Of a DNA stretch of 46,331 bases, positions 62-40,499 are shown piece by piece (within the stretch, counting starts at the first letter, position 1; each line of letters starts with the position of its first letter). Under the pieces are notes generated by a model. The model was not told the origin of the DNA. It saw only the letters and a program-made list of their open reading frames with translations, and did not search any database. The translations under genes and the position numbers were made by a program. The stretch spans positions 1 through 46,331 of the forward strand of contig JAJOKO010000108.1 in assembly GCA_021129825.1 (NCBI GenBank), read 5' to 3'. The DNA comes from Desulfotomaculum sp. (GTDB lineage: Bacteria; Bacillota; Desulfotomaculia; Desulfotomaculales; Desulfohalotomaculaceae).

Positions 62-161
62 AGCTTTCAGCGGTCAGCAGTCAGCTAAAATATTAAAAAC
101 CAAAAAAGATTTTGAACTTGTTTTTTAGCTGACCGCTGATAGCTGATAGCTGACTGCTAAA
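62..161. repeat. Inverted pair of heptamer arrays able to form a long hairpin (left arm 62-90 as TCAGCNN units; right arm 127-161 as five NGCTGAY units)
   Basis: Right arm reads AGCTGAC CGCTGAT AGCTGAT AGCTGAC TGCTAAA. Left arm is the approximate reverse complement. The same unit recurs at 1998-2029 and 17201-17277. Confidence 0.8.
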
Positions 162-1985: not shown

Positions 1986-1997
1986 TAAGTGAGTTTT

Positions 1998-2029
1998 AGC
2001 TGATCGCTGACTGCTGACCGCTGATAGCT
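1998..2029 (+). repeat. Unpaired heptamer array directly after the trpB stop (AGCTGAT CGCTGAC TGCTGAC CGCTGAT AGCT)
   Basis: Four and a half tandem 7-nt units preceded by TTTT. Same unit as at 127-161 and 17246-17277. Confidence 0.8.
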
Positions 2030-2139
2030 TGTAATTCAGACTTTAGTACCTCTTTACTTTTTTGTTTTTTAGTTTATAATGTTGTGTAAGTTGCTCGTTG
2101 TACCATGGTAATGTTGTAAATGTTCAATAGGGATAAATT

Positions 2140-2164
2140 CACTGACAGCGGTCAGTGTTTTTTG
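2140..2164 (+). terminator. Rho-independent terminator-like hairpin
   Basis: CACTGAC-AGCG-GTCAGTG followed by TTTTTTG. Confidence 0.7.
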
Positions 2165-2204
2165 AATAATGGGTTGTTTAAAAACTTGAAAAGAGGTGTT
2201 GGGC

Positions 2205-2585
2205 ATGGAAGAAAGACAATTGCTAATGCCAGAAATTAATGAATCAAATATAGGTTTCTTAAAATTAACTAAAATAAAAGGTAGTAATATTACTTTAATT
2301 TTAAATAATTCCCTTGAAGTGGAGCCTTATTTTGATGAACAATCTCAAGAAGTTGTATTTGAAATTCCAGAGTACAATATAATTGCAGTAGGTGTAACCA
2401 GAGAAGAAGCAATACAAGAATTACAAAATGATTTAGTGTGGTTATGGGAAGAATATGTGGAAACACAAGAAAAAAACTTTTCTAAAGATGCAAAGGATTT
2501 AAGGAACTCTTTAAAGCGGTTGATCAAGGGAGTGGAATATAATTGCGAAAAACACAACCGAGAAAAAACGTGGAAAACGCATTGA
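2205..2585 (+). CDS. HicB-like (UPF0150-fold) putative antitoxin
   Basis: The segment FEIPEYNIIAVGVTREEAIQELQNDLVWLWEEY resembles the HicB N-terminal motif (xPxxxGxxxxGxTxEEAxxxxxEA). SD AAGAGGTG precedes the ATG at 2205. It overlaps the next ORF. Confidence 0.5.
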   Translation: MEERQLLMPEINESNIGFLKLTKIKGSNITLILNNSLEVEPYFDEQSQEVVFEIPEYNIIAVGVTREEAIQELQNDLVWLWEEYVETQEKNFSKDAKDLRNSLKRLIKGVEYNCEKHNREKTWKTH

Positions 2586-2842
2586 AAAAGAAAGGTTTTG
2601 AGCAAAGTAACCGTGACCATAAGAAATTCACATATCACACCTTTGAAGGAGAGAAAACGAGCATTTGGACAAAAATTAGTCACGGGACAAGCCACAAAGA
2701 TATATCTAGGGATAATCTGAAAAAGATGGCAAGGCAGTGCCGGCTTGATTTGGAAAGTTTGCATGATTTAATAGATTGCCCGTTAAGTCGTGAAGAATAT
2801 CAAAAAATTCAAATTTCTAGCGGGGATATAAGAACCAACTAG
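2543..2842 (+). CDS. HicA-like putative mRNA interferase toxin with a C-terminal extension
   Basis: ALKKKGFEQSNRDHKKFTY ... SHGTSHKDISRDNLKKMARQCRL resembles the HicA/YcfA pattern (LxxxGFxxxxxxGSHxxF ... HGxKDLxxGTLxxILKQAGL). TTG start at 2543 has SD GGGAGTGG. Alternative GTG start at 2570. Confidence 0.5.
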   Translation: MRKTQPRKNVENALKKKGFEQSNRDHKKFTYHTFEGEKTSIWTKISHGTSHKDISRDNLKKMARQCRLDLESLHDLIDCPLSREEYQKIQISSGDIRTN

Positions 2843-2919
2843 AAGGTGATAATCAAGTCAAATTTATGTTCATGCGGTTTAGCTACATATAGGATTGAGA
2901 GGGGTAGGATTAAATTATA

Positions 2920-3840: not shown

Positions 3841-4089
3841 ATGTATACGAAAATTCAAAAATGGGGTAACAGTCAAGGATTACGTCTTGCCAAGAACGTA
3901 CTGAAAGATGCTCGCCTTGAAGTCGGTAGTGAGGTAAACGTTACAGTACGAGATGGTATTATTACTATCATGCCAATTAGGAAAATTCGTAAGCGGTACT
4001 GCCTTGATGACCTCGTGGCACAAATCCCCGAAGACTACTACACTAGCGAAGTTAATTGGGGGAAACCAGTCGGTAAAGAGGTGTGGTAA
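3841..4089 (+). CDS. mazE: AbrB/MazE/SpoVT-family antitoxin
   Basis: N-terminal KIQKWGNSQGLRLAK swapped-hairpin motif. The stop overlaps the mazF ATG (TAATG). Confidence 0.85.
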   Translation: MYTKIQKWGNSQGLRLAKNVLKDARLEVGSEVNVTVRDGIITIMPIRKIRKRYCLDDLVAQIPEDYYTSEVNWGKPVGKEVW

Positions 4090-4424
4090 TGACGATCTAT
4101 GTTCCGCAGCAAGGTGACATTATTTCCATCACTTTCAACCCCCAGTCCGGACACGAACAAAAAGGTCGCCGACCTGCTTTGGTTGTGAGCAAGGGCATGT
4201 TCAACCGTAGCACTGGCTTGGTTATTGTGTGTCCTTTAACAAACACAGAACGCCGGTTTCCTTTTCATGTACCTGTTCCAGAAAACAGCAATCTGACGGG
4301 GTTTATCATGGTTGAGCAAATCAAGTCGCTCGACTTTAGTACTCGTCGAGCACAGTTCATCGAATATGCCTCAGATGAACTGCTGGCAAATGTGCTATCA
4401 ATATTGGATACTTGCATCTATTAA
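4089..4424 (+). CDS. mazF: MazF/PemK-family endoribonuclease toxin
   Basis: YVPQQGDIISITFNPQSGHEQKGRRPALVVS is typical of the PemK fold. The ORF track offers a GTG at 4083. Confidence 0.85.
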   Translation: MTIYVPQQGDIISITFNPQSGHEQKGRRPALVVSKGMFNRSTGLVIVCPLTNTERRFPFHVPVPENSNLTGFIMVEQIKSLDFSTRRAQFIEYASDELLANVLSILDTCIY

Positions 4425-4470
4425 CTGACCAAAAATCAAGCCAAAAAATTGAAGATTATGACCACTATTT

Positions 4471-5946
4471 TCATTCCAAATCATCCTGGTTATTAATGCG
4501 TGGATGATCAACGACCAGCGATTGTTTACCAGTATACCACTGCATTAAATCTTCGCCTTCTTGCTTAGAAACATCAACGAGTTCAAAATAAGCCATAGAA
4601 GCTAAGTCTAAACCAAAAGTGACTAAATCAACCCGGCGTTGAAACGGTGAATGTCCGATAGTGAGAGATTGCATGCAGTGCCGGGGTACCAGTACCGTGG
4701 TTCTGACGAATAAATTACGAAATCTTACTGCCAGCATATTTTGCTGACAACCCCAGCCGGCATCTTGGTATTGCCACCAACCTGAAAATACTGCTAAAGG
4801 CAACAACAATAGGGTTACCCAACCCCATTCCAACCAAAATATTGCTACCGGTATGCCAGCTAGTGCTAAAGGTGACATCGCTAAAGTAGCCCGGAAGATA
4901 TAGCGGTTACGAGCTATGGTGGGCAGTGTTTCTAAAGGAATATCATAGGCAAATTCCGGCAAAAATTCTTGTAAAAAATTAATCAATTCTCGCCGGCGTA
5001 GCAGTGGCCAAAGCAAGGCTTTTTCGCCGCTTTCCAAAGCATAACCGGCACTTTCTATTTTTAATGCACCGTATCCCCAAGGTTGCCGCATTAATCCTTC
5101 TGTAAAACGTACTGCTTGAATACGCTGTACCGGGATTGATATTTGATGCCGCTCCAATAATCCGTAAACTATTTGCAGACGATCTTCAGCACGGGTGACG
5201 GTAAAGCGACCATATTTAATCACTATGCCAATAACTGCTAATAACCATAAAAATAATAGCACTATAATAGCAAAAATTAACGTAAATAAAATTGATGCTA
5301 CTATTTGTTCGTATATTTGCATAAAATATGCTTGTTCTAAATCCGGTCGCCACCTGATTTGATGAAGTAAAGTAAAGATACCGGAAAAGAAAGCGGCTAC
5401 TAGCCCAAAACCACTGGTGGAAGTTATCCCAAAAATAATCAGTTCCGAAAAAGATATTTTTTTGCTTGCTTTAGGGGTTGCTACGCCGGTTGTTTCTGCT
5501 TCGATTTCTACCGGTTTGGCAGGTAATAATGTTTGACGCAAGTTCTCCGCATCTTGTTTAGCAACAGCAGTAAAAACAGCTTCTGGTTCTGTGCCGCCGG
5601 CTGTTTCAATTTGCACCGTAACTACCCCGAAAAGGCGTTGTAAAATCCCTTGATTAAAATCAATCACTTGAATCCGTTCCCGGGGGATCAAGGTTTTTTT
5701 ACGAACGAATATCCCGCTATGAACATTTAGTTCATTATCTTTAATCTGATAAGTAAAGCGATACCAAGACAGAATACCCCAGCCGGATGCTACTAGAAGT
5801 AGAATTCCCCCGGCTATTAATACCCAAGTTTGAATGCCTTGTGAAACCAGCACAATAACCAATGGTATAATTGAGTTTCTTAATATTTTAACAGCAGATA
5901 ACAGAGCGCCGGCCGGGTGTAAACGACAAGGTTCAAAGCACATCAT
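4471..5946 (-). CDS. ydbT: Membrane protein with three bacterial PH (bPH_2/DUF304) domains, YdbT-like
   Basis: 491 aa with alternating TM pairs and three repeats of the pattern (R)ERIQ.ID..QG...R..G. It overlaps the upstream ydbS-like stop by 14 nt. Confidence 0.75.
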   Translation of the reverse strand: MMCFEPCRLHPAGALLSAVKILRNSIIPLVIVLVSQGIQTWVLIAGGILLLVASGWGILSWYRFTYQIKDNELNVHSGIFVRKKTLIPRERIQVIDFNQGILQRLFGVVTVQIETAGGTEPEAVFTAVAKQDAENLRQTLLPAKPVEIEAETTGVATPKASKKISFSELIIFGITSTSGFGLVAAFFSGIFTLLHQIRWRPDLEQAYFMQIYEQIVASILFTLIFAIIVLLFLWLLAVIGIVIKYGRFTVTRAEDRLQIVYGLLERHQISIPVQRIQAVRFTEGLMRQPWGYGALKIESAGYALESGEKALLWPLLRRRELINFLQEFLPEFAYDIPLETLPTIARNRYIFRATLAMSPLALAGIPVAIFWLEWGWVTLLLLPLAVFSGWWQYQDAGWGCQQNMLAVRFRNLFVRTTVLVPRHCMQSLTIGHSPFQRRVDLVTFGLDLASMAYFELVDVSKQEGEDLMQWYTGKQSLVVDHPRINNQDDLE

Positions 5947-6415
5947 CGGACACCTGCGCTAAACTGGAAATATGCTGACTAAGAGCACTGGCTGTTTCTG
6001 TTGCCAGTGCTGGTATTTCGTGGGCACCAGTCGCAGTAGAAATAGTTACAGTAGCCAAATCGTAATGACGCATTAATATCCCTTGCAGGGTATCCACATG
6101 CTGTACCCGTGCCAGTGGAATAAGAGTACGTTCCACAATCCATACCCCGCGCTGCAAGTCGATTTCATTTTCGGTAATTTCATAACGCCAGCGTTGCCAG
6201 CGCAATCGAGGCAATACCAATATCTCTAAAATACCATGTAAAATCACTAAGACTGCTGGGATTATTAAAATCCAGTGAGACCATTCCAGTAGGATTATTA
6301 AGGCGGCAGCAGCACCAAAAACAATAATGCTCAATATGGCAGTGCCAATACCACCGTGAATTTGCCATAATTTCAAAGCTCGTAAATCAAGTTTTTCTTT
6401 GGGTTCGGGACGCAT
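5933..6415 (-). CDS. ydbS: Single bPH_2-domain membrane protein, YdbS-like
   Basis: Two TM helices followed by LIPLARVQHVDTLQGILMRHYDLATV. The ATG at 6415 is preferred because the ORF-track TTG at 6427 abuts the SD. Confidence 0.7.
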   Translation of the reverse strand: MRPEPKEKLDLRALKLWQIHGGIGTAILSIIVFGAAAALIILLEWSHWILIIPAVLVILHGILEILVLPRLRWQRWRYEITENEIDLQRGVWIVERTLIPLARVQHVDTLQGILMRHYDLATVTISTATGAHEIPALATETASALSQHISSLAQVSDDVL

Positions 6416-6645
6416 TGATGTAAACAACTCCTTTTTTTAATGGGACACTAAAAGACATATTAGATTATATTTCTTGAATAAAACTGATTTTCCTGCTGAA
6501 AAATATCAAAATTATATTTATGTTGTTAGTATATCTCCATAAAACAAAATCAGTACAAATGATCAAAAGTAGTAGTTTTTTTATGATATACTATAATTAA
6601 TAATAATTGGTAAAATTAAAACACTAAAGAGGAGTTGAACGCAAT

Positions 6646-7008
6646 ATGGTGAAGACAAAATATTTCTCAACCCACCTACTTGACAAGGCCTTAGCCAAAA
6701 ATAAAGCAGTGAGGGAACATAAAAGACAGCAACAATTAGCTCTTGTTTTTGAAGCTATTGACAAGCTGTCTAGCAGAGTTTCCTTTGAAAAAAGTTATGT
6801 TTTTGGTTCTTTGGTTAAGCCGGATTGTTTTTTGAAAAACTCTGATATTGATATCGCCTTTGAAGGCTTAAGTAATAGAGAATTCTTTCCGACAATCACT
6901 TTTCTTGCCAGTGAGTTAGATGCAGAAATAGATGTTATCCAAATGGAAGGTCACCCTTTGCGGGATATAATTGTTCAGGAGGGAATTGAATGGAAACAGA
7001 AAAGTTGA
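6646..7008 (+). CDS. Minimal nucleotidyltransferase (MNT-type antitoxin)
   Basis: Contains the GS...DxD motif (VFGSLVKPDCFLKNSDIDIAF). It overlaps the downstream HEPN gene by 19 nt. Confidence 0.8.
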   Translation: MVKTKYFSTHLLDKALAKNKAVREHKRQQQLALVFEAIDKLSSRVSFEKSYVFGSLVKPDCFLKNSDIDIAFEGLSNREFFPTITFLASELDAEIDVIQMEGHPLRDIIVQEGIEWKQKS

Positions 7009-7442
7009 GCCTATTTAAAGCTTTAGTTAATAATCAAAAGGAAGAAATTGAGCATATTTTTATTAAAATAGAGCAGAGACGGACTGGAGAGGGGGCAGTT
7101 AATTTAGAAAGCCTTGCTTATCAACTGCATAATTTATATTGTGCTTTTGAAGATTTATTTAAAATCATTGCCAAGTTTTTTGAGAATCATATTGAAGATA
7201 AAAGCAAATATCACCGGGAGCTTCTTTGGAGGATGAAAATTTCGATTGAAGGAATCAGACCTGCTTTATTATCTAAAACAAGCTATAAATTACTTGATTC
7301 TCTCAGAGCATTTCGTCATGTTTTTAGGCATGCTTATTCCTATGAACTTGATCAACAGAAGGTAGCTATAATAGTGGAAGATGTTCTTAAACTAAAAGAT
7401 TTGTATCAAAAAGAAATCGATCATTTTTTAAAACAATTTTAG
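6990..7442 (+). CDS. HEPN-domain protein (HepT-like putative RNase toxin)
   Basis: All-helical 150-aa protein with an Rx4H motif in RAFRHVFRHAYSYELD, paired with the MNT gene. Confidence 0.7.
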   Translation: METEKLSLFKALVNNQKEEIEHIFIKIEQRRTGEGAVNLESLAYQLHNLYCAFEDLFKIIAKFFENHIEDKSKYHRELLWRMKISIEGIRPALLSKTSYKLLDSLRAFRHVFRHAYSYELDQQKVAIIVEDVLKLKDLYQKEIDHFLKQF

Positions 7443-7541
7443 ATTTTTTAAAAAAAATCTTCATTTCCTACTTGCTTTCAGAAAAACATTTGTTGTTTAG
7501 GGGCTTTTCGAAGAACACTTAAAGTTAGGGGTGTACGATTT

Positions 7542-8207
7542 GTGAATATACAATTTTTAAAAAACCATCTTTCAAACAAAATTTTGACTATCAGTATAAT
7601 AATCACGTTGATTATTATCTATGGAGTGGCATTTTTACAGCCCTTTGCTTACGGTATTCGGTATAAGATTGTTTGGTCTCAGGATCTTTGGTCTGAGTAT
7701 CCGATAACTAGAGATTTTCTCACAATTGGAGAGATGCTCCAGTTTTTAAAGATTGCGCCCTTTGATTTTCTACTCTTAGGAGGTCTGCCGGTATTTCTTG
7801 TGTGCGGTACAGCCTTTTTTTACCATCTCTTTTACCGTCTCAGGTGCAGAAGCGGAAAGCAATCTTTGAGTTATCTAAAAACCTTATTAGACGCAACTTT
7901 GATTTTCGCACCAATTACTATTGGAACATGCTTGGGGTTATTATTTGAGTTTTCGCTTGTTGCCAGTGCCCTCCTTGGTGATGCTCCCCTCACCATCTTC
8001 TTTACTTTATTCGCTGTCTTCATTGCGGGTTCTTTATGGTTTTATAAATTGCGGTCACTCTGGCTGGTTTGTGTTGGAAAAATATCTAACCATGGTTACA
8101 TATGGTTATTTTTAATTACAATAAGCTTTTGTTTTTTTTATGTATTTTTGATGGTTCTTGCTATCTTCAATCTCTCGGATATGGTCAGAGCAATTGAAAT
8201 TACTTAA
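7542..8207 (+). CDS. Hypothetical polytopic membrane protein (about 5 TM), no recognised family
   Basis: 221-aa ORF with a GTG start, hydrophobic segments and an AT-rich composition. Confidence 0.55.
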   Translation: MNIQFLKNHLSNKILTISIIITLIIIYGVAFLQPFAYGIRYKIVWSQDLWSEYPITRDFLTIGEMLQFLKIAPFDFLLLGGLPVFLVCGTAFFYHLFYRLRCRSGKQSLSYLKTLLDATLIFAPITIGTCLGLLFEFSLVASALLGDAPLTIFFTLFAVFIAGSLWFYKLRSLWLVCVGKISNHGYIWLFLITISFCFFYVFLMVLAIFNLSDMVRAIEIT

Positions 8208-8245
8208 AATTTAATGAGGAATTTAGGGAGTTGAATATTCCAAAA

Positions 8246-8266
8246 AACTGACCGCTAAATACTAAC
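8246..8266 (+). repeat. Degenerate heptamer array (AACTGAC CGCTAAA TACTAAC)
   Basis: Three units in 7-nt register, 39 nt after the stop of the membrane protein gene. Confidence 0.4.
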
Positions 8267-8396
8267 CTTGCTGGGAGTGGTGCGAAAAGAGTATGAAACA
8301 GTGTAGGTGCTTTGCTAAAAGTTAACATAAGGCATATTAGCGGAACCAACAAAAATAGCAAATTTTTAATTTGTTTGTAAAACTTTAGATTATATT

Positions 8397-8451
8397 AATA
8401 TAATTTTAATATAATTTTAATATAATTTTAATATAATTTTAATATAATTTT
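8397..8451. repeat. Five perfect tandem copies of the 11-bp unit AATATAATTTT
   Basis: Counted directly. Each unit contains TATAAT. Partial copies flank the array, which ends 77 bp upstream of the EAL/GGDEF gene start. Confidence 0.95.
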
Positions 8452-8527
8452 AACGAAAATTTAATATAATAATGTTATACTTTAACAGGTGTGTTGAAAG
8501 ATCTTCAGTAACATTGGAGGAATATTT

Positions 8528-10819
8528 ATGTTATCCAGTAAATTTGCAACTAAAATTTCGACAATTATTAATCACCTTCCCTTTTTATCAAATAGTCCCT
8601 TAAAGGGTCTCACTAGTTATTTACAAAACAAGCAGTGGGTTGGTATTCTGTATTTAGATATTGTTAAATTTAGTCTTATTGAAGAAAAGTTTGGTCCAGA
8701 TAGTTGCGCAACAATATTGCAACAGTTAGAAATTACCTGTAAAAATATAGGTGTAGAGGTTGTTTCACCGTATATGGTGATCAAAGTTTACCGTTGGGGC
8801 GATGATATCTGCCTGTTTTTCACCGGCGATTCTTCACCTAGTATTGCTGAATTTCAAAAAAAAGCTTATAAATTTAAAGATGAAGTACGCAGTGCTATTA
8901 ATGAATTTTTAGCTCGTAGTATTAAATTAAAAGGAATATTAATATTAAATCAGCTTGATTTTCACGTCGGCTATGCTATTGCTCGTTCTGAAAAAAGCTC
9001 TTGTAATAAAGCAGTTTATAAAGCTTTAAAAGAAAGTTTTTTAATTGCTAAAAATAAATATAATTTAGAAGAAGTGCTGGGTTTAGAAATACTTAAAGAT
9101 TTAATAACCCAAAGCAATTTCCGGATAGTGTACCAACCGCTAGTTAACCTATCCAATGGCGAAATAATTGGTTATGAAGCCTTGACCCGTGGTCCTGCCG
9201 GTAGCGTTTTAGAATCACCGGGCATGCTCTTTCCATTAGCTGAAAAAGCAGGTTTATTATATCCCTTAGAAAAAGTAACCAGAGAAAAAGCATTAACAGA
9301 AATGCACCGGCTAAATCAGGGGGAAATGCTTTTTTTAAATATTAATCCTACGATATTAAATGACCCTTCTTTTTCGAGCGGTAGAACAAAAGAAATATTG
9401 CAGAAAACACAAAGGATGCCCCAGCATGTTGTTTTTGAAATAACAGAACGCACTGCTATTACTAATTTTTCTGCTTTTCGTAAAGCTTTAGAACATTACC
9501 GCCGTCAAGGCTTTAAAGTAGCAATAGATGATGTCGGTGCCGGTTATTCTAGTTTGCAGTCAGTAGCCGAGCTTAAACCTGATTTTATTAAAATTGATCG
9601 TTCGTTAATCGCTAACATCCACCTGGATTCCACCAAGCAAGCTTTACTGGAAACATTTGTGGTATTTAGTCGTAAAATCAATAGTGCTTTAATTGCCGAA
9701 GGGATTGAAACTAGAGAAGAATTAAAATCAGTTATCCGTTTAGGTGTTAATACCGCCCAAGGTTTTTATATCGCCCGACCGGCTAATCCCTTACCAGATT
9801 TAAATACTGATTTTAAGATGAGCTTAAAAGAAAAAACTACTCGTAAACAAGATGCTTTAAATATGTTACCGTTAGTGGGCGAAATTGTGCAAGCCACCTT
9901 ATATGTAAATACTGGTGATGCTACTGGTGATGTAGTAGCCAAATTTCAACAAAATAAGAACTTGCATAATGTGGTAGTATTAGATTCAAATGAGCAACCA
10001 GTTGGTTTAATAACCCGGGATAAATTATTTTATAAATTAGGTAAACAATATGGTTTTGATCTATATTGCCGGCGGGCAATTGATTTATCGATGGACAAGC
10101 AACCTTTAATTATTGAATCTAATATTGATATTGACACGGCAGCTCAATTAGCAATGCAACGAAATGTTGATCAAATTTATGACCCGTTTATAGTGATTGA
10201 AAATAACCGCAGTTTAGGGCTTGTTTCTATTCGCCAGCTTTTAGATACTATTAGTAATTTGAAAATGGCAGTAGCCCGGTCGGCAAACCCGTTAACTGGT
10301 TTGCCGGGTAATATTGTTATTGAAGCCGAGTTGCTTAAACGCCTTGATAAAAACATCCCTTATGCCGCAATTTATATTGATTTGGATAATTTTAAAGGTT
10401 TTAACGATCGCTATGGCTTTGAACGAGGTGATTTAGCCTTGAAGATGACGGGCAGAATACTTACTGACGTTACTACTCAATATGGCAGCAAACACGATTT
10501 GGTCGGTCACATTGGCGGTGATGATTTTATTATTATCTCCAAACCAAGTCAAGCAGATACTATCTGTCAAAAAATAATTGATCGTTTTGCTGAAACTGCT
10601 CCCAATATTTATGATCAAGAAGATCGTGCGAAAGAATCTATTACTACAGTGGACCGCCAAGGACAAAAAGTACAAATACCAATTATGAGTGTTTCTATCG
10701 TCTCTGCAAAAGGCGGTCCTAAATATAATCCGGTTAGTTTTGAGCAATTAGCTGAAACTATTGCAGTGCTAAAAAAGAAAGCTAAAGCTATTCCAGGTAA
10801 CGCTTATGTGTGCCAATAA
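8528..10819 (+). CDS. Multidomain c-di-GMP protein: degenerate GGDEF (RWGDD), EAL, two CBS, and GGDEF variant (GGDDF)
   Basis: EAL catalytic set is present (YEALTRG, NINP, FEITER, AIDDVGAGYS, KIDRS, AEGIE, QGFY). The C-terminal cyclase-like domain reads DLDNFKGFNDRYGFERGD ... HIGGDDFII. Confidence 0.85.
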   Translation: MLSSKFATKISTIINHLPFLSNSPLKGLTSYLQNKQWVGILYLDIVKFSLIEEKFGPDSCATILQQLEITCKNIGVEVVSPYMVIKVYRWGDDICLFFTGDSSPSIAEFQKKAYKFKDEVRSAINEFLARSIKLKGILILNQLDFHVGYAIARSEKSSCNKAVYKALKESFLIAKNKYNLEEVLGLEILKDLITQSNFRIVYQPLVNLSNGEIIGYEALTRGPAGSVLESPGMLFPLAEKAGLLYPLEKVTREKALTEMHRLNQGEMLFLNINPTILNDPSFSSGRTKEILQKTQRMPQHVVFEITERTAITNFSAFRKALEHYRRQGFKVAIDDVGAGYSSLQSVAELKPDFIKIDRSLIANIHLDSTKQALLETFVVFSRKINSALIAEGIETREELKSVIRLGVNTAQGFYIARPANPLPDLNTDFKMSLKEKTTRKQDALNMLPLVGEIVQATLYVNTGDATGDVVAKFQQNKNLHNVVVLDSNEQPVGLITRDKLFYKLGKQYGFDLYCRRAIDLSMDKQPLIIESNIDIDTAAQLAMQRNVDQIYDPFIVIENNRSLGLVSIRQLLDTISNLKMAVARSANPLTGLPGNIVIEAELLKRLDKNIPYAAIYIDLDNFKGFNDRYGFERGDLALKMTGRILTDVTTQYGSKHDLVGHIGGDDFIIISKPSQADTICQKIIDRFAETAPNIYDQEDRAKESITTVDRQGQKVQIPIMSVSIVSAKGGPKYNPVSFEQLAETIAVLKKKAKAIPGNAYVCQ

Positions 10820-10834
10820 ATACGGTTTACAGTT

Positions 10835-12301
10835 TTATTCAACTATAATTAAATTTGGCTTTATTCGAATATTATATGGTAAACCAGTATCAATAAAACC
10901 CGGGATTGATATATAAGTTATCCCTTCACTGACAACAATATCCGTGGCATTAGCGGCAATAGGAATAAACATGTGGTAGTTTTCCTGTTCTTTAGTTAGT
11001 TCAATTCTAGAACTTTTTTGATCCCAATTGACCATATAACCCAAGGCTTCCATAGTAAAACGCAACGGGATATAATAACTGCCATCTTCGTAATAAGCTC
11101 CCCCCCTCATTTTTATTTCTGCGCCATTTATGTTAGCAATGTTTTTGCCGATAGTAAATCTAATCCTCTGATATTCAGCCGGTTTTAGAATGCTTTTGGC
11201 TACGTGCATCTTTAATCCTGGCGAAAGCACTTGTCTGTCCGGTATTAATCCTGTATTTTGAATCAGTCGACCATCAGGAAGTCTATACTCCGCTACCGTT
11301 AATTTCAATGCGCCGCCATCACTGAGATTTAGGATTGTTTGCACCGTACCTTTGCCATAAGTTTGATTACCTACTAAGGTAGCTACGCCGTGATCTTGAA
11401 GAGCACCGGCTACTATTTCAGCGGCACTGGCGGTATTTTCATCAACTAATACTACTATCGATAGATTATTAATCAACTTCACATGATTACTAAAATAAAT
11501 TGTTTCCTCGCCGCAATTTTCTATAAAACTAATTATTTTTTTGTTTAGCGGTAAAAAATAATCAACTATATCTACTGCAGCTATTAAATGCCCTCCCGGA
11601 TCATTACGTAAATCTAAAATTAAGCCTTTTAGCTCCCGGTTTTGCTTTTGTAAATTCTGCCAAGCATCAAGAAATTCGTTTGCTGTACGTTCGTTAAAAC
11701 TAATAATATCAATATAGCCGATATTCTCAAACACTACTTCTGAATATACCGTGGGCGTATTAATTGGAGCCCGGACTAGCGGTATTTTAAAGGTTTGATT
11801 ATCCCGGCGAATAGTTAATACTACTGTGCTACCCTCTACGCCACGAATTTTTTCAGCAATAATATCTAAAGAAAGTTGTTTAATACTTTTTCCATCAACT
11901 GCAATAATCAAGTCACCCTCTTTAATAAGGGCTTGTTTAGCCGGAGAATTAGCAAATACTACTACTACTTGAATATAATCATTAAACGCTTCCATTTTAA
12001 TGCCAATACCGACATATTTACTATCCAAAAAATCTGCAAATTCTTGCCATGATTCCGGTGTAATATGCTCAGCATAAGGGTCATTAAGAGTATCCAGCAT
12101 CCCATCAATAGCACCGTCAACTAAATCATCAGCTTGCGGTTTACTAATGTGATATTCTAGGATGTAATTAGAAATTTCTTTTAAACTAGTTGAGTGTCTC
12201 TCGGTAAATCCCGCATTATTAAAACTGCCAAAAGCCATTGCCGGCCAAGTTAAAAAAAATATCATCACCATAACTAGCATAAAATTAAATTGCTTAAACA
12301 A
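10835..12301 (-). CDS. S41 C-terminal processing peptidase with PDZ and a C-terminal copper-amine-oxidase-N-like domain
   Basis: Signal peptide, PDZ (GDLIIAVDG), catalytic region ENTASAAEIVAGALQD and YGKGTVQ. TTG start with SD GGGGTG. Confidence 0.85.
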   Translation of the reverse strand: MFKQFNFMLVMVMIFFLTWPAMAFGSFNNAGFTERHSTSLKEISNYILEYHISKPQADDLVDGAIDGMLDTLNDPYAEHITPESWQEFADFLDSKYVGIGIKMEAFNDYIQVVVVFANSPAKQALIKEGDLIIAVDGKSIKQLSLDIIAEKIRGVEGSTVVLTIRRDNQTFKIPLVRAPINTPTVYSEVVFENIGYIDIISFNERTANEFLDAWQNLQKQNRELKGLILDLRNDPGGHLIAAVDIVDYFLPLNKKIISFIENCGEETIYFSNHVKLINNLSIVVLVDENTASAAEIVAGALQDHGVATLVGNQTYGKGTVQTILNLSDGGALKLTVAEYRLPDGRLIQNTGLIPDRQVLSPGLKMHVAKSILKPAEYQRIRFTIGKNIANINGAEIKMRGGAYYEDGSYYIPLRFTMEALGYMVNWDQKSSRIELTKEQENYHMFIPIAANATDIVVSEGITYISIPGFIDTGLPYNIRIKPNLIIVE

Positions 12302-12453
12302 AAAAACACCCCATCATAAATGATTTATTTATAAATTACCTAATGTTAAGATAGTTCTCTACTTGACGATAATTTCCTGCATCAATGTAAAATTAAAGTA
12401 AAGCAGGTATTATAAATGTTAATGTAGAAGATAATATTTCTAAAGTAGTTTTT

Positions 12454-12467
12454 TTCTGACGACTGAC
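12454..12467 (+). repeat. Two heptamer units (TTCTGAC GACTGAC) after a T-run in the polA leader
   Basis: Same NNCTGAY unit and the same TTTT prefix as the larger arrays. Confidence 0.35.
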
Positions 12468-12500
12468 GAAAGTGGGTGCTTAAAAATTTCTTCAAATACT

Positions 12501-15134
12501 TTGATTGTAATAGACGGAAACAGTTTGGTTTACCGGGCTTTTCATGTGATCCCTCTTTTAACTACGAATCGTGGTCTAGTAACCAATGCCGCTTACGGTT
12601 TTACTAATATGTTATTGAAAATTTTAGAACAAGAACAACCTGGGTTAGTAATAGTAACTTTTGATAAAAGCAGGCTAACCTTTCGTAACCAACAATACAG
12701 CGAATATAAAGCGAATAGAAAACCAATGCCGGCAGAATTACGACCACAATTTCAAATCATAAAAGATATTTTGCAAGCTATGCGGATAACGGTACTTGAA
12801 TTAGAAGGCTATGAGGCTGATGACCTAATTGGTACTATTGTTGCTCAGGCTGGTAAAGCCAATATTTCCACATTAATTATTAGTGGCGATCGTGATGTTT
12901 TTCAATTAATATCTGCTAACACTAAAGTTCTGATCACCCGTAAAGGTATTACTCAATTGGATATTTATGATGATCATAAAGTGCGGGAACGTTTTGGTAT
13001 CTCTCCCCACCAGTTTATCGATTTCCGGGCCCTGACCGGAGATAGTTCAGATAATATTCCCGGTGTACCCGGCATTGGTGAAAAAACTGCTGCCAAGCTG
13101 TTGCAGCAATATCCTAGTTTGGATGATATTCTGGATAATCTAGACCAATTACCTAAACGCCAACAAGAAAAAATCAAACAACATCGTGAACAAGCCTTAT
13201 TGTCTAAACAATTAGTCACTATTAAACAAGATGTGCCTATTGAAGTAAATTTAAATAAATGCACTTATAATAATCCGGATCATCATCGCTTATTAAAATT
13301 ATTTACCGAACTGGAATTTAAATCTTTAGCTAAATCATTGTTAGCAGATAATAGTTCTAAAGAAATTAGTGATCTGGCACCAGCAGATGCTGTTTCAGTG
13401 GTATATCAAAAAATAACTACACCTGAACAATTACAAGAATTAATCAATACCACTCGTAGTGCCGGTAAAATAGCACTGGTGCTAGGTGGTAGTAAAGAAA
13501 CCGGGGTAATAACAGCTGTTATCGCCACCGGAGACCAGTACCCGGTATTCTGCCTACCGGTAGAAGGGCAGTCACCTGAATATCTCCAAACATTAAAAAC
13601 TATTTGCGAAGACCCTAAAATAACCAAAGTTTGTCATCATGCCAAAAATATTATTTGGTTATTAGACTATCATGATATCAAATTAAAAAATTTAAGTTTT
13701 GATGTTGGTATTGCCGCCTATTTATTGAATCCTACTGTTGCTAATACAAATTTAGAAAATTTAGCATTAGCCTATTTAGACCAGGTGCTTTTACCTGATG
13801 CAGCAAGTTCATTGCCATCCCAGGCAAATGCTATTTACCAGTTAGCACCACTATTCCACAAGAAACTCCAAGAACAGCAACAGGAGCAATTATTTTATAC
13901 CATGGAATTACCACTGGTAAATGTGCTGGCTGAAATGGAAATCCAAGGCATGGCTGTAGATAGGCAAATACTAGAAGACATGTCTGTGCAACTGGGTCAG
14001 CATATTGCTATCCTTATTCAAGAGATCCATAATTTATCAGGGGAAAAATTCAATATTAATTCCCCTAAACAATTGGGTAAAATATTATTTGAAAAACTGG
14101 GCTTACCGGTTGTTAAAAAAACTAAAACCGGTTATTCGACTGATGCCTCAGTGTTAGAATCATTATCTGCGAGTCTAAAAGGCACCGGAAAACAGCAGAT
14201 TATTATTAAGTTATTACAATACCGGCAACTAGCAAAATTAAAATCTACCTATGCAGATGGTTTAATCAGTCTGATTAGTAAAAAAACAGGGCATATTCAC
14301 ACTACTTTAAACCAAACAGCAACTGCTACCGGGCGATTATCAAGCACTGCTCCTAATTTACAAAATATTCCGATTCGTTTAGAGTTGGGAAAACAAATTC
14401 GGCGAGCGTTTATACCAAGCAATTCTGATAATCTGATTTTGACTGCTGATTATTCCCAAATTGAACTGCGAGTGCTAGCTCATATCTCCGGCGACCCCGG
14501 TTTTTTAGAAGCTTTTAATAACAAACAAGATATTCATGTGCGCACTGCATCCGAGGTATTTAACGTGCCGGTGGATACAGTTACACTTGAAATGCGCAGC
14601 CGGGCTAAAGCGGTTAACTTTGGCATTATCTATGGCATTAGTGATTTTGGACTGTCCCGTGATATTAAAGTCAGTAGAGCAGAAGCACGCCGCTATATTA
14701 ACAACTATTTTGCTCGCTGTCCCGGAGTAAAAAAATATATTGACCAGATAATAGTAAAAGCTAAAGAGTGTGGTTATGTAACCACACTCTTTAACCGGCG
14801 ACGTTATTTGCCAGAACTAGCCAGTTCTAGTCATGCCACTCGTAATTTTGGTGAACGTATCGCTATGAATACACCTATTCAAGGTAGTGCAGCAGATATT
14901 ATCAAGCTAGCAATGATTAACATTCATAAGCAGTTGCAAAAAAATAAACTGTTCTCTAAAATGATTTTACAAGTACATGATGAATTGATTTTTGACGCTC
15001 CTAAAAATGAAATGCCGGCGTTAATTAAGCTAGTTAAAGGATGTATGGAAAATGCTTTATCTTTAGATGTGCCTCTGGTGGTAGATATAAAAACCGGTCC
15101 AAACTGGTATGAGGTAAAACCGGTTAACAGTTAA
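12501..15134 (+). CDS. polA: DNA polymerase I
   Basis: 5' nuclease motifs (IDGNSLVYRAF, GDSSDNIPGVPGIGEKTA). Pol motifs A (ADYSQIELRVLAH), B (RSRAKAVNFGIIYG) and C (QVHDEL). The TTG start is uncertain because there is no clear SD. Confidence 0.95.
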   Translation: MIVIDGNSLVYRAFHVIPLLTTNRGLVTNAAYGFTNMLLKILEQEQPGLVIVTFDKSRLTFRNQQYSEYKANRKPMPAELRPQFQIIKDILQAMRITVLELEGYEADDLIGTIVAQAGKANISTLIISGDRDVFQLISANTKVLITRKGITQLDIYDDHKVRERFGISPHQFIDFRALTGDSSDNIPGVPGIGEKTAAKLLQQYPSLDDILDNLDQLPKRQQEKIKQHREQALLSKQLVTIKQDVPIEVNLNKCTYNNPDHHRLLKLFTELEFKSLAKSLLADNSSKEISDLAPADAVSVVYQKITTPEQLQELINTTRSAGKIALVLGGSKETGVITAVIATGDQYPVFCLPVEGQSPEYLQTLKTICEDPKITKVCHHAKNIIWLLDYHDIKLKNLSFDVGIAAYLLNPTVANTNLENLALAYLDQVLLPDAASSLPSQANAIYQLAPLFHKKLQEQQQEQLFYTMELPLVNVLAEMEIQGMAVDRQILEDMSVQLGQHIAILIQEIHNLSGEKFNINSPKQLGKILFEKLGLPVVKKTKTGYSTDASVLESLSASLKGTGKQQIIIKLLQYRQLAKLKSTYADGLISLISKKTGHIHTTLNQTATATGRLSSTAPNLQNIPIRLELGKQIRRAFIPSNSDNLILTADYSQIELRVLAHISGDPGFLEAFNNKQDIHVRTASEVFNVPVDTVTLEMRSRAKAVNFGIIYGISDFGLSRDIKVSRAEARRYINNYFARCPGVKKYIDQIIVKAKECGYVTTLFNRRRYLPELASSSHATRNFGERIAMNTPIQGSAADIIKLAMINIHKQLQKNKLFSKMILQVHDELIFDAPKNEMPALIKLVKGCMENALSLDVPLVVDIKTGPNWYEVKPVNS

Positions 15135-15173
15135 ATATGATCAAAAGATGAAAAGGTAAAGAGATTTCTTTTA

Positions 15174-15378
15174 GTGCGTGTTCGAAAAGGGTACCCTTTA
15201 GCACATTTGAAATTTACATATTAATCCAATTAACCTTAAAGCACACCCCCACCCTACCCTCCCCCATCAAGGGGGAGGAGACTTGATTTCCCCTCCCCTC
15301 GTGGGAGGGGCGGGTACCCACCCGAAGGGAAGGGTGCGGGGAGGGGGGTTGCCACAAACATACTTTTCGAACACGCAC
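15174..15378. mobile_element. Complete family A MITE (205 bp)
   Basis: Perfect 16-bp TIR GTGCGTGTTCGAAAAG / CTTTTCGAACACGCAC. Identical TTTTA 5-mers lie at 15169-15173 and 15379-15383. The core is GC-rich and multi-hairpin, with no ORF. Confidence 0.9.
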
Positions 15379-15429
15379 TTTTAGTTCTTTAATTCTTTAA
15401 TCTCTTAATCTCTCAAAGGAGTACTTAAA

Positions 15430-16554: not shown

Positions 16555-17229
16555 TTGGAGTTAATTGCTATCATAATATTTGCTTTAGCTTTGAATATGG
16601 ATGCCTTTGGAACCGGCATAGCTTATGGTATCAGAAGAATTAAAATTCCTTTTAATTCGGTGCTGATTATCAGCCTAATGTCAGTAATAGCTATTAGTAT
16701 TTCAATGATAGCGGGACATCTGCTGACCGGTATATTATCTGAATCATTGGCCCGGCAGCTTGGAGGTATTTTATTAATAATCTTGGGTATTTGGTTATTG
16801 ATTCAATGTCGTCCAAATTCAAAAAACGGCACTGCCAAACAGCATCAAAAAGAGAAATTGCAAAAAACAGTGTTAAAACTACGCCTTAAAATGCTCGGAT
16901 TAGTAATTCAAGTGCTACGTGAACCAGTAAAAGCTGATTTAGATAAATCTGGTGTTATCAGTTCACGCGAGGCTCTTTTGCTAGGGTATGCACTGGCTTT
17001 AGACGCTTTCGGAGCCGGTTTTGCAGTAGCTATGATTGGATTTAACTTGATTATCACGGTGGTTGTAGTCGGATTAGGACATATTTTAATGATTTACTCC
17101 GGGTTAATCCTAGGTAGCCGTTTTATAGCTACTAATATTGGACCTAAAATGGCTGTAATACCAGGTTTAATCCTAATTATCATCGGGATATTTAAGTTAA
17201 TCAGCGTTCAGCTATCAGCTATCAGCTAA
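16555..17229 (+). CDS. ytaF: Sporulation membrane protein YtaF (MntP-like fold)
   Basis: LALNMDAFGTGIAYGIRRIKIP and a second LALDAFGAGFAV repeat. The polA-mutM-ytaF order matches Bacillus. Confidence 0.8.
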   Translation: MELIAIIIFALALNMDAFGTGIAYGIRRIKIPFNSVLIISLMSVIAISISMIAGHLLTGILSESLARQLGGILLIILGIWLLIQCRPNSKNGTAKQHQKEKLQKTVLKLRLKMLGLVIQVLREPVKADLDKSGVISSREALLLGYALALDAFGAGFAVAMIGFNLIITVVVVGLGHILMIYSGLILGSRFIATNIGPKMAVIPGLILIIIGIFKLISVQLSAIS

Positions 17230-17277
17230 AGATTTAAAAGATTTTAGCTGAACGCTGACTGCTGATCGCTGAAAGCT
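17201..17277. repeat. Inverted pair of heptamer arrays forming a hairpin that spans the ytaF stop codon
   Basis: Left arm TCAGCGT TCAGCTA TCAGCTA TCAGCTA (17201-17228). Right arm AGCTGAA CGCTGAC TGCTGAT CGCTGAA AGCT (17246-17277), followed by ATTTTTATT. Confidence 0.85.
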
Positions 17278-37011: not shown

Positions 37012-37159
37012 GTGCGTGTTCGAAAAGGGTACCATTTAGCACATTTGAAATTTACATATTAATCCAATTAACCTTAAAGCACACCCCCACCCTACCCTCC
37101 CCCATCAAGGGGGAGGGTAGGGTGGGGGGTTACCACAAACATACTTTTCGAACACGCAC
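37012..37159. mobile_element. Complete family A MITE (148 bp, simplest form)
   Basis: Perfect 16-bp TIRs and TTATA direct repeats (37007-37011 and 37160-37164). The core is a perfect 20-bp stem CCCCCACCCTACCCTCCCCC-ATCAA-GGGGGAGGGTAGGGTGGGGG. Confidence 0.9.
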
Positions 37160-37335
37160 TTATACATGGTCATAACCTCCAAGTTGATATTTTTTAATTA
37201 TCCTCTTTATCACGCCAACCTTAAAAATATTCTTGGTATCATTATACCATTGCCAGATTTTTATATTCAAGTCTTTTTAGGTTGATTTAGAGCTGACGCA
37301 TGAAACGGGTGCCCATACCCTTCCCTGTCCCCTGC

Positions 37336-38584: not shown

Positions 38585-38612
38585 TTCAGTAATCAGTGGT
38601 CAGTGGCTACTA
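38585..38612 (-). repeat. Heptamer array just after the pyk stop (minus strand: CCACTGA CCACTGA TTACTGA)
   Basis: Plus strand reads TTCAGTA ATCAGTG GTCAGTG GCTACTA. A variant unit (ACTGA instead of GCTGA). Confidence 0.6.
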
Positions 38613-40372: not shown

Positions 40373-40499
40373 CAACCTACATTCTAACATAATCAGCCCA
40401 CACCCCATTTTATTATTTTAACTCAGATTATTGAGTATTAGGTTCTATGGTTTTGATTTTTTCCTTTATCCTCGTTCCTAGCTCCTTACTTTTTGTTCT

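What the first reader, a model, noticed from the sequence alone, without database searches (positions are those of the whole stretch)
62..161. STRR-like tandem heptamer arrays (NNCTGAY) at gene boundaries, oriented with transcription
Arrays of a 7-nt unit occur at 127-161 (5 units), 1998-2029 (4.5 units), 17246-17277 (4.5 units), 38585-38612 (3-4 units, ACTGA variant), 8246-8266 (3 degenerate units) and 12454-12467 (2 units). Most are prefixed by a T-run. The four unpaired arrays all read NNCTGAY on the sense strand of the adjacent co-oriented gene (after trpB, after the 7542-8207 gene, after pyk on the minus strand, and in the polA leader). Two loci (62-161 and 17201-17277) have a second inverted array, giving long hairpins of about 25 bp. 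The hairpin of the terminator at 2140-2164 (bases 2140-2157) also looks built from the same words (CACTGAC AGCGGTCAGTG). Tandem heptamers of this kind are known to me as STRR sequences of heterocystous cyanobacteria. I do not know an equivalent described in Firmicutes. The strict 7-nt periodicity and strand bias hint at RNA-level or single-strand recognition.
Basis: partly seen in the sequence, partly recalled or inferred. Interest (0 to 1): 0.65.

Follow-up and report, generated by a model that had tools for sequence, protein, structure and literature searches.

The report
Dispersed heptamer-array hairpin repeats
The 7-base repeats are real. They are the arms of a multi-copy hairpin element recently inserted between genes of this Firmicute, and the same element occurs in many bacterial phyla and phages, where longer copies carry a small Avd-like "intervening-sequence" protein gene.

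Summary
Five strong arrays of (A)GCTGA-N-N with a strict 7-nt period lie at 62-85(-), 127-161(+), 1998-2029(+), 17201-17228(-) and 17247-17277(+); none is expected by chance. Four of them form two long imperfect hairpins, always ordered 5'-(NNTCAGC)n-loop-(GCTGANN)n-3'. One is a solo arm.

The arrays are not conserved regulatory sites. Three relatives have a compact trpC-F-B-A operon without them. The same genome holds at least 14 more copies.

The type is neither Firmicute- nor cyanobacteria-specific. It occurs in more than 15 phyla and in tailed-phage head operons, almost always between cistrons.

In an 80-locus sample, genes for the PF05635 "23S rRNA intervening-sequence protein" (S23p; bAvd-like in Pfam) are flanked by inverted heptamer arrays. 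The cores of the two arms change together. 17 loci carry the GCTGA core, always in the same orientation.

Best reading: the window holds ORF-less, MITE/REPIN-like copies of this IVS-type hairpin element. Their RNA is probably an RNase III-type substrate. Mobility, protein binding and RNA processing are inferred, not shown.

Similar arrays were noted in Geobacter, Beggiatoaceae and cyanobacteria. I found no report of the link to the protein gene.

The parts
62..85 (-). Hairpin 1, 5' arm. Reads AGCT-T-TCAGC-GG-TCAGC-AG-TCAGC on the + strand: 3 units plus a terminal AGCT.
86..126 (.). Hairpin 1 loop. A/T-rich, with an A-run and a T-run next to the arms that extend the stem.
127..161 (+). Hairpin 1, 3' arm (AGCTGAC CGCTGAT AGCTGAT AGCTGAC TGCT). 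It lies about 20 nt upstream of the trpF start and abuts an unrelated MITE on the far side of the hairpin.
1998..2029 (+). Solo array of 4 units plus AGCT, 13 nt after the trpB stop, at the left edge of the insertion that splits trpB from trpA. On its own it has no significant fold (z -0.34).
1986..2919 (+). AT-rich insertion between trpB and trpA, about 930 bp, absent in three relatives. It holds the solo array, a terminator-like hairpin (2140-2157) and two small ORFs (2205-2585 and 2570-2842; only the first gives a weak, sub-threshold antitoxin-like Pfam match). TTATAAT occurs at both junctions and may be a 7-bp duplication.
17201..17228 (-). Hairpin 2, 5' arm (4 units). It is translated as the last 8 codons of ytaF (..KLI-SVQLSAIS*), which homologues lack.
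17229..17246 (.). Hairpin 2 loop (TAAAGATTTAAAAGATTTTA region).
17247..17277 (+). Hairpin 2, 3' arm (4 units plus AGCT), followed by a T-rich tail. It lies between the convergent ytaF and a cell-wall hydrolase gene.
38586..38604 (-). Short ACTGA-core array (CCACTGA CCACTGA TTACTGA) between the pyk stop and the next gene. It is a weak member with a related core.

Best explanation
The arrays are the two arms of a dispersed, multi-copy hairpin element with the layout 5'-AGCT-(N-TCAGC-N)n - loop - (GCTGA-NN)n-GCT-3', usually 3-5 heptamers per arm.

The window holds ORF-less copies, two complete and one half. These were inserted recently into short intergenic spacers: between trpC and trpF, after trpB, and onto the 3' end of ytaF.

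Elsewhere, full-length relatives of the same element carry a gene for the PF05635 S23p/IVP four-helix-bundle protein between the arms. That is the architecture known as an intervening sequence (IVS) in 23S rRNA genes. The window copies therefore stand to the full element as MITEs or REPINs stand to their parents.

Shown: the anatomy, the insertion state, the copy number, the cross-phylum recurrence, the association with the IVP gene, and the covariation of the arm cores.

Inferred: (i) the copies spread by a still unknown mobility or copying mechanism; (ii) when transcribed, the roughly 28-bp periodic stem is cut or bound like an IVS stem (RNase III), uncoupling or stabilising the flanking cistrons; (iii) the heptamers are unit binding sites, possibly for the pentameric IVP protein.
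For: Anatomy and significance.

Derived insertions: a relative with 91% identical TrpB (L125-128) and two at about 80% (L129, L130) have contiguous trpC-F-B-A, with trpB/trpA overlapping or abutting. They carry no CTGA arrays in roughly 45 kb. All YtaF homologues end before the 8 residues encoded by the arm.

Multi-copy in the same genome: depth over hairpin 2 is 205 and 652, against a baseline of 14.7 and 44.7. Other contigs of the same coverage match the whole hairpin. Hairpin 1 is at about 6-10x and the solo array at about 4x.

Arrays end sharply in N-A-G-C-T (63/81/89/78%). Arm order is (-)(+) in 48 cases against 8. 47 of 91 arrays have a partner arm, against 0.9% in control windows. 101 of 120 arrays are intergenic, and all 19 scored inside predicted genes (the 13 listed individually) are antisense. 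74 of 89 hairpins lie between co-directional genes, a median of 12 nt after the stop.

IVP link: L057 and L100. In 80 IVP loci, TCAGC arrays lie upstream in 10, GCTGA arrays downstream in 17, both in 9, and the opposite orientation in none. 74 of 80 loci have period-7/8 arrays. Cores are complementary in 37 of 42 loci, against 9.3% in the cross-locus control. The IVP stop codon lies in the 3' arm.

Half-element indel between related phages.

Literature: the Coxiella IVS has tandem heptamers in its stem, is cut there by RNase III, and encodes S23p; the solved S23p homologue (Xanthomonas) is a pentamer (PMC4990558).
Against: No PF05635 gene lies in the window. I could not search the rest of this genome for one. 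None was found in 1.04 Mb of array-rich viral loci, so the hairpins clearly exist without a nearby IVP gene.

No clear target-site duplication or transposase was seen, and the mobility mechanism is unknown.

In phage head operons the hairpins sit at orthologous junctions in related phages. That fits a selected expression function as well as a selfish one.

No RNA data could be obtained. G-U-type and A-C-type mismatches between arms are equal (59 vs 61). The variable positions pair only slightly more than chance (50% vs 43%). Arm similarity could therefore reflect shared protein recognition of DNA rather than base pairing.

The solo array at 1998 sits at the left edge of its insertion, in the orientation of a right arm. 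The simple model does not explain this.
Confidence: 0.5

Rival explanations
1. The hairpins are selected intercistronic expression elements, not selfish DNA. They would act as RNA hairpins placed between a stop codon and the next ribosome-binding site. Possible roles are processing sites, 3'-end stabilisers, attenuators, or translational insulators, since the 3' arm puts TGA in all three frames. On this view they are gained by selection or gene transfer.
For: 74 of 89 hairpins lie between co-directional genes. The element starts a median of 12 nt after the stop and ends a median of 26 nt before the next start. Tailed-phage head modules carry one at nearly every junction, and at the same junctions in related phages. 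GCTGA at period 7 gives TGA in all frames, and the IVP ORF itself stops there. A is enriched at the variable positions of both arms on the sense strand. Nostoc heptamer arrays alter recF/recO reporter expression (bioRxiv 10.1101/2022.06.06.494920).
Against: In the window they are absent from the same operon in three relatives. One copy adds a junk tail to YtaF. The distance to the next start is inflated by an ORF-calling artefact, because the arrays themselves close every frame. Many IVP-flanking cores contain no stop codon. There is no G-U excess. No transcript data exist.
Confidence: 0.22
2. The arrays are tandem binding sites on double-stranded DNA for a multimeric protein, with one 5-6 bp core per subunit. 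Examples would be a nucleoid or global regulator as proposed for Geobacter, an omega/RHH-type heptad binder, or a stoperator-like phage repressor. The two arms would look alike because the same protein binds both, not because they pair.
For: There is a conserved 5-6 nt core with 1-2 nearly free positions per unit. Arrays have sharp ends and a narrow size of 3-5 units. G-U-type and A-C-type mismatches are equal. Geobacter authors annotated inverted pairs of five MTYCTGA heptamers as putative global-regulator sites (PMC2700814). S23p is a homopentamer in the solved Xanthomonas structure (PMC4990558).
Against: No candidate protein is linked in the window. The same core occurs across more than 15 phyla and in phages, which would need a conserved or co-transferred binder. 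The fixed (-)(+) arm order and the short loops are what a hairpin needs; two independent sites would not need them. A 7-bp spacing puts successive sites on different faces of B-DNA.
Confidence: 0.15
3. The arrays are neutral microsatellite-type repeats made by replication slippage. Heptamers are the commonest long simple-sequence repeats in bacteria.
For: Heptanucleotide repeats are over-represented in many bacterial genomes (Mrazek 2007, as cited in PMC4679880). Perfect (GCTGAGT)n and similar runs also turned up in the scan.
Against: Units within an array are not copies of one another: the core is invariant while the two other positions differ. Boundaries are sharp, with no decayed units. Inverted partners occur in a fixed order. 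The same design recurs across phyla. No 7-nt copy-number variation was seen among the metagenome populations.
Confidence: 0.04
4. The arrays are operon-specific regulatory sites for an RNA-binding attenuation protein such as TRAP or HutP, suggested by their location in the trp operon.
For: Two of the three loci are in the trp operon. HutP-type sites have a 7-nt period (my own knowledge of HutP and TRAP).
Against: The conserved word is GCTGA, not (G/U)AG. There are only 4-5 units. One locus lies at ytaF and at least 14 others elsewhere. The arrays are absent from the trp operon of three relatives.
Confidence: 0.02

Closest known systems
Geobacter metallireducens "class 3 putative global-regulator binding sites" (Aklujkar et al. 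2009, PMC2700814)
   Same: About five tandem heptamers with a CTGA core (MTYCTGA). They occur as pairs on opposite strands at variable distance. They are multi-copy and lie in intergenic spacers, including intercistronic ones such as proB|proA. They are unique to one species of the genus.
   Different: The core word differs slightly (YCTGA vs GCTGA). The host is a deltaproteobacterium. They were interpreted as IHF/HU-type DNA sites without a test. No link to a protein gene was reported.
23S rRNA intervening sequences carrying an S23p ORF (Leptospira, Coxiella, Xanthomonas; PMC4990558)
   Same: Terminal inverted repeats form a stem of about 28 bp. The Coxiella stem contains tandem heptamers whose number varies between strains. 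RNase III cuts in the stem. The loop carries a PF05635 gene. They are regarded as selfish elements.
   Different: The window copies have no ORF. They lie between protein genes, not in 23S rRNA helix 25 or 45. Their heptamer word is different. Processing was not tested here.
Cyanobacterial STRR sequences (Mazel et al. 1990; from my own knowledge)
   Same: Tandem heptanucleotides, many dispersed intergenic copies, function unknown.
   Different: STRR units (CCCCAGT, TTGGTCA, CAACAGT) are near-identical within an array. Here two positions per unit vary, arrays are short (3-5 units), and they mostly come as inverted pairs. The host is a Firmicute.
TAACTGA direct repeats of marine Beggiatoaceae, cyanobacteria and Bacteroidetes (MacGregor 2015, PMC4679880)
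   Same: A heptamer with a CTGA core, 2-6 copies per set, intergenic, with a patchy cross-phylum distribution that suggests transfer. The window's 38586-38604 array has this ACTGA core.
   Different: Those repeats are exact units. Almost all are direct (only one inverted set in 170) and lie just upstream of start codons.
REP/REPIN elements and MITEs
   Same: Short, non-coding, multi-copy and extragenic. Inverted doublets form hairpins, singletons occur beside doublets, distribution is lineage-specific, and assemblies break at copies.
   Different: A single arm is not itself a palindrome. There is no GTAG-type head and no RAYT or transposase was seen. Target-site duplication is unclear. The same core recurs across phyla, whereas REPs are species-specific.

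Membership tests
Cyanobacterial STRR | Tandem heptanucleotide unit, dispersed and mostly intergenic | tested here: met
   Period 7 at five loci. All are intergenic or at gene ends. At least 14 more copies exist in the genome.
Cyanobacterial STRR | Unit sequences STRR1-3 (CCCCAGT, TTGGTCA, CAACAGT), near-identical units within an array | tested here: not met
   The unit is NGCTGAN, with two positions varying from unit to unit.
Cyanobacterial STRR | Host is a (heterocystous) cyanobacterium | tested here: not met
   The best named TrpB and YtaF relatives are Peptococcaceae and Desulfotomaculum.
Geobacter-type paired heptamer sites (class 3) | About 5 tandem heptamers with a CTGA core | tested here: met
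   3-5 units of GCTGANN per array.
Geobacter-type paired heptamer sites (class 3) | Two sites on opposite strands at variable distance, multi-copy, intergenic | tested here: met
   Two of the three loci are pairs, with spacers of about 20 and 41-42 nt. Copies elsewhere.
Geobacter-type paired heptamer sites (class 3) | Bound by a global regulator | not testable with these tools
   This was only a hypothesis in PMC2700814.
IVS / S23p (PF05635) element | Terminal inverted repeats forming a long stem | tested here: met
   dG -41 to -43 kcal/mol, z -6.4 to -8.2.
IVS / S23p (PF05635) element | Arms made of period-7 units whose cores are complementary between the two arms | tested here: met
   Window. 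Family: 37 of 42 loci complementary against 9.3% in the control. Same GCTGA core and orientation in 17 of 80 IVP loci.
IVS / S23p (PF05635) element | PF05635 ORF between the arms | tested here: not met
   Loops of about 20 and 41-42 nt. No IVP-like ORF among the window ORFs. The window copies can therefore only be ORF-less derivatives.
IVS / S23p (PF05635) element | Inserted in 23S rRNA helix 25 or 45 | tested here: not met
   The window has no rRNA. The copies lie between protein genes.
IVS / S23p (PF05635) element | Excised by RNase III | not testable with these tools
   The metatranscriptome runs gave one contig only.
REP / REPIN | Each unit is an imperfect palindrome recognised by a RAYT | tested here: not met
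   The solo array does not fold (z -0.34). No RAYT was looked for beyond the window.
REP / REPIN | Inverted doublets and singletons, extragenic, high copy | tested here: met
MITE | Terminal inverted repeats plus a target-site duplication | tested here: inconclusive
   The arms act as TIRs. TTATAAT flanks only the roughly 930-bp insertion. No duplication is evident at hairpins 1 or 2.
Intrinsic terminator | Short GC-rich stem, small loop, U-tract | tested here: not met
   The scan flags 2140-2157 but neither heptamer hairpin. Only hairpin 2 has a T-rich tail.
Rfam RNA families | Score at or above the gathering threshold | tested here: not met
   Only a tRNA in the window. Below threshold there are only generic miRNA-hairpin hits.

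The most novel reading that the evidence does not exclude
Short tandem-heptamer arrays seen for decades in bacterial genomes may be the cis-acting arms of one widespread family of IVS-type selfish elements. This would cover cyanobacterial STRRs, Beggiatoaceae TAACTGA repeats, Geobacter paired sites and the GCTGANN hairpins of this window. The only gene of such an element would be the pentameric, Avd-like S23p/IVP protein. The protein would read the heptamers one subunit per unit, and the core would co-evolve with it. ORF-less hairpins in cells and phages would be its non-autonomous derivatives or its trans targets.
Probability: 0.3. Interest if true: 0.8.

Novelty: new member of a known kind. 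Interest (0 to 1): 0.62.

Why it matters
Tandem heptamers are the commonest long simple repeats in bacteria, and their role has been open since the STRR papers of 1990.

This window leads to three concrete statements:
1. The unit is a hairpin with a fixed arm order, not a direct repeat.
2. The same GCTGANN design is shared by more than 15 phyla and by tailed phages, where it marks cistron boundaries.
3. In an 80-locus sample, genes of the uncharacterised PF05635 family (S23p/IVP; bAvd-like in Pfam) are flanked by such arrays, with compensatory changes in the core.

That gives both orphans a testable partner: the heptamer arrays get a candidate protein, and the protein family gets a candidate nucleic-acid ligand.

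For annotation, it explains contig breaks, odd C-terminal tails such as the one on YtaF, and split operons such as trpB|trpA.

Tried and rejected
- **Rfam**, at gathering and permissive thresholds: no family.
- **RNA evidence**: two metatranscriptome runs from the same sample gave a single contig in trpA, so there is nothing on transcript ends.
- **First lookup of TrpB** failed because of a wrong start codon. It was fixed.
- **Idea that the outer AGCT end creates or marks stop codons**: 43% of tails form a stop against 37.5% expected. Dropped.
- **Apparent tight spacing to the downstream start codon**: partly an artefact, because the arrays close all three frames.
- **RNA-strand test on arm mismatches**: G-U-type 59 against A-C-type 61, no signal.
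- **Pairing of the two variable positions**: only 50% against 43% by permutation.
- **IVP genes in array-rich viral loci**: none in 1.04 Mb.
- **IVP gene in the window**: none.
- **Cargo check** for distant inverted arrays in L017 and L108: ordinary genes lie between them, not cargo.
- **Close empty site for hairpin 2**: the nearest YtaF relative is only 67% identical, so only the C-terminal extension could be shown.
- **Literal sequence strings in the literature**: no relevant paper.
A true genome-wide census of this genome was therefore not possible.

Full report
**1. The observation**

The window (46,331 bp, 37.9% G+C) contains five strong arrays of a 7-nt unit with an invariant GCTGA word and two variable positions. 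They lie at 62-85(-), 127-161(+), 1998-2029(+), 17201-17228(-) and 17247-17277(+). A 3-unit pattern with at most one mismatch matches 12 times, against 0.00 in 100 dinucleotide-preserving shuffles. Counting any 4-mer at period 7, the window has 7 arrays against 1.3 in shuffles.

All five arrays begin TTT(T)-AGCTGA, and four end in a truncated unit...GA-NN-GCT. The sites at 8246-8266 and 12454-12467 are not beyond chance.

**2. Anatomy in the window**

Four arrays make two inverted pairs, both ordered 5'-(NNTCAGC)n - loop - (GCTGANN)n-3'. They fold into imperfect stems of about 28 bp (dG -41 to -43 kcal/mol on either strand, z -6.4 to -8.2). The solo array has no structure of its own (z -0.34).

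The simple scan does not call the pairs intrinsic terminators. The hairpin at 2140-2157 is called.

Gene context:
- Hairpin 1 lies between an unrelated MITE end and the trpF start.
- The solo array lies 13 nt after the trpB stop.
- Hairpin 2 lies between the convergent ytaF and a cell-wall hydrolase gene.

**3. The arrays are insertions, not conserved sites**

The organism is a Desulfotomaculales/Peptococcaceae-like Firmicute from hydrothermal-vent metagenomes. A relative with 91% identical TrpB (four contigs) and two relatives at about 80% identity all have trpC-trpF-trpB-trpA contiguous, with trpB and trpA overlapping or abutting. They carry no CTGA array of 3 or more units in roughly 45 kb.

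In the window, trpB and trpA are separated by an AT-rich insertion of about 930 bp. It begins with the solo array and carries two small ORFs. TTATAAT occurs at both junctions.

The 5' arm of hairpin 2 is translated as the last 8 residues of YtaF (SVQLSAIS*), which no homologue has.

**4. Copy number in the same genome**

Metagenome contigs were laid on the window. Depth over hairpin 2 rises from 14.7 to 205 in one run and from 44.7 to 652 in another. Several other contigs of the same coverage match the whole hairpin, loop included, and continue into different flanks. Assemblies break there. Hairpin 1 is at about 6-10x and the solo array at about 4x.

The arrays are therefore not confined to this region. 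No 7-nt copy-number variants were seen among these populations.

**5. The same element elsewhere**

A 4-unit GCTGANN pattern has about one chance match expected in 596 Gb (my own estimate). The hits were mostly Acidobacteriota, but also Planctomycetota, Verrucomicrobiota, Chloroflexota, Bacteroidota, Nitrospirota, Desulfobacterota, Omnitrophota, Elusimicrobiota, Armatimonadota, Patescibacteria and cyanobacteria (Okeania). It hit the limit again in IMG/VR.

Setting aside perfect microsatellites, the variable-NN arrays share the window's features:
- They have mostly 4-5 units.
- The 3' boundary is sharp, N-A-G-C-T (63/81/89/78%), with no decayed units beyond.
- A partner arm occurs within 600 nt in 47 of 91 arrays, against 0.9% of control windows.
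- Arm order is (-)(+) in 48 cases against 8.
- 101 of 120 are intergenic. All 19 scored inside predicted genes are antisense, as expected because the sense orientation carries TGA in all three frames.
- Of 89 hairpins, 74 lie between co-directional genes. They start a median of 12 nt after the upstream stop.

**6. Link to a protein gene**

In two genome loci the "loop" is about 420 nt and encodes a PF05635 protein, the "23S rRNA intervening-sequence protein" (S23p/IVP; a weaker match to the bAvd-like family).

I then started from the protein. 80 IVP loci were fetched from metagenomes. TCAGC arrays lie upstream in 10, GCTGA arrays downstream in 17, both in 9, and the opposite orientation in none. 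These are concentrated among the IVPs closest to the query.

More generally, 74 of 80 loci have a period-7 (sometimes 8) array within 180 nt, and 42 have one on both sides. In 37 of those 42 the two cores are reverse complements, against 9.3% when loci are cross-paired.

The cores differ between lineages: TCAGC/GCTGA, TAAGC/GCTTA, CTAGC/GCTAG, TCAGT/ACTGA, AGGGT/ACCCT and others. They differ even at what looks like the same junction, between conserved flanking genes that I take, from sequence only, to be dprA and topA. All units of both arms have therefore changed in concert.

The IVP ORF usually ends at a TGA of the 3' arm. Its C-terminal ...KLKADR* is encoded by three heptamers.

I found no paper that describes this association. 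The Coxiella IVS paper does report tandem heptamers (GACAGAT, variable in number) in the IVS stem, RNase III cleavage at the first repeat, and a pentameric structure for the Xanthomonas S23p homologue (PMC4990558).

**7. Phages**

Some IMG/VR contigs are packed with these hairpins, up to 22 arrays in 12 kb. L246/L298, L254 and L245 were examined. In L246 and L254 the ORFs are tailed-phage head modules: large terminase, portal, head morphogenesis, protease and major head protein. A hairpin sits at almost every cistron junction, and at the same junctions in related phages.

Two related phages differ by an indel of exactly the loop plus the 3' arm. This shows how solo arms arise or are completed. 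No IVP gene occurs in 1.04 Mb of these viral loci.

**8. RNA or DNA?**

The arm cores covary, which fits pairing. It equally fits two ends read by one protein. Mismatches between arms are as often A-C-type as G-U-type (61 vs 59). The two variable positions pair only slightly above chance (50% vs 43%, z 2.6). A is enriched at the variable positions of both arms on the sense strand.

No usable transcript data exist for the window. The level at which the element acts is therefore open.

**9. Comparison with what is known**

- The closest published description is in the Geobacter metallireducens genome paper. It reports eight pairs of five tandem heptamers (MTYCTGA) on opposite strands, for example between proB and proA. 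They were annotated as putative global-regulator sites and are unique to that species (PMC2700814).
- TAACTGA direct repeats of Beggiatoaceae, cyanobacteria and Bacteroidetes share the CTGA core, but they are exact and almost never inverted (PMC4679880).
- Cyanobacterial STRRs share only the class. A Nostoc preprint shows that heptamer arrays affect recF and recO expression.
- REP/REPIN elements and MITEs are the best functional analogies.
- No Rfam family matches.

**10. Verdict**

The label "STRR-like" is acceptable as a class description but fails as membership.

The best-supported explanation (about 0.5) is that the window holds ORF-less copies of a widespread IVS-type hairpin element. Its arms are heptamer arrays, and its full form carries an S23p/IVP gene. 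The copies were gained recently and are multi-copy in this genome.

Three things are inferred and not shown: that they are mobile, that the RNA stem is an RNase III-type substrate, and that the heptamers are protein-binding units.

The main rivals are not exclusive of this reading. One is a selected intercistronic expression element (about 0.22). The other is an array of dsDNA binding sites (about 0.15).

Noticed in passing
window 15173-15379 and 37012-37160 (full copies); 1-57 and 46275-46331 (half copies at both window ends); partial copies at 45500-45595 and 45750-45870: An unrelated MITE-like repeat of about 150-200 bp. Its terminal inverted repeats are AGTGCGTGTTCGAAAAG ... CTTTTCGAACACGCACT, around a C-rich/G-rich hairpin. 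The contig starts and ends inside copies. Depth in the metagenome contigs is 4,000-15,000 against a baseline of 15-48.
   Followed up: partly
window 40462-40486 (- strand): Four purine-rich heptamers (AGGAGCT AGGAACG AGGATAA AGGAAAA) lie about 55-80 nt upstream of the pyk start. They form a Shine-Dalgarno-like period-7 array. It is not complementary to the ACTGA array after pyk.
   Followed up: no
window 8395-8470: A tandem repeat of an 11-nt AT-rich unit (TTAATATAATT, 6.9 copies) lies upstream of a GGDEF/EAL gene (8528-10819). The period equals one helical turn.
   Followed up: no
window 3841-4424, 6646-7442 and 2205-2842: A cluster of small toxin-antitoxin-type pairs around the trp genes: MazE/PemK-like, nucleotidyltransferase/HepT-like, and a pair of small ORFs inside the trpB|trpA insertion whose first member gives a weak antitoxin-like hit. 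The 91% relative has a PIN/MazE pair instead at the corresponding place.
   Followed up: partly
window 17286-17896 (- strand): The cell-wall hydrolase (Hydrolase_2) ORF at 17286-17633 overlaps an upstream ORF at 17579-17896 by 55 nt in another frame. This may be a frameshifted or two-part gene.
   Followed up: no
L100 1624-1690 and 2064-2135: A direct duplication of about 70 bp, itself containing GCTGANN and TCAGC arrays, flanks the IVP gene on both sides. It looks like a footprint of how the cassette entered or was copied.
   Followed up: partly
L004, L019, L136-L210: IVP genes of other subfamilies are flanked by inverted arrays with quite different cores (AATCNN hexamers, GTGGGTN, TAAGC/GCTTA, AGGGT/ACCCT, CTGG/CCAG and others). 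Some are long perfect arrays of 9-17 units that resemble classic STRRs. 5' arms tend to be purine-rich.
   Followed up: partly
L131, L134, L140, L149 downstream of the 3' arm: A second conserved GC-rich hairpin (gcgcggcc...ttggttgcggcc...ggccgcgc) follows the GCTGA arm in several IVP loci. It may be another repeat family or a terminator.
   Followed up: no
L068 2076-2696: An IVP-like gene carries 9-nt tandem units (NCCTATNNG) both upstream and inside its coding sequence, in direct rather than inverted orientation.
   Followed up: no
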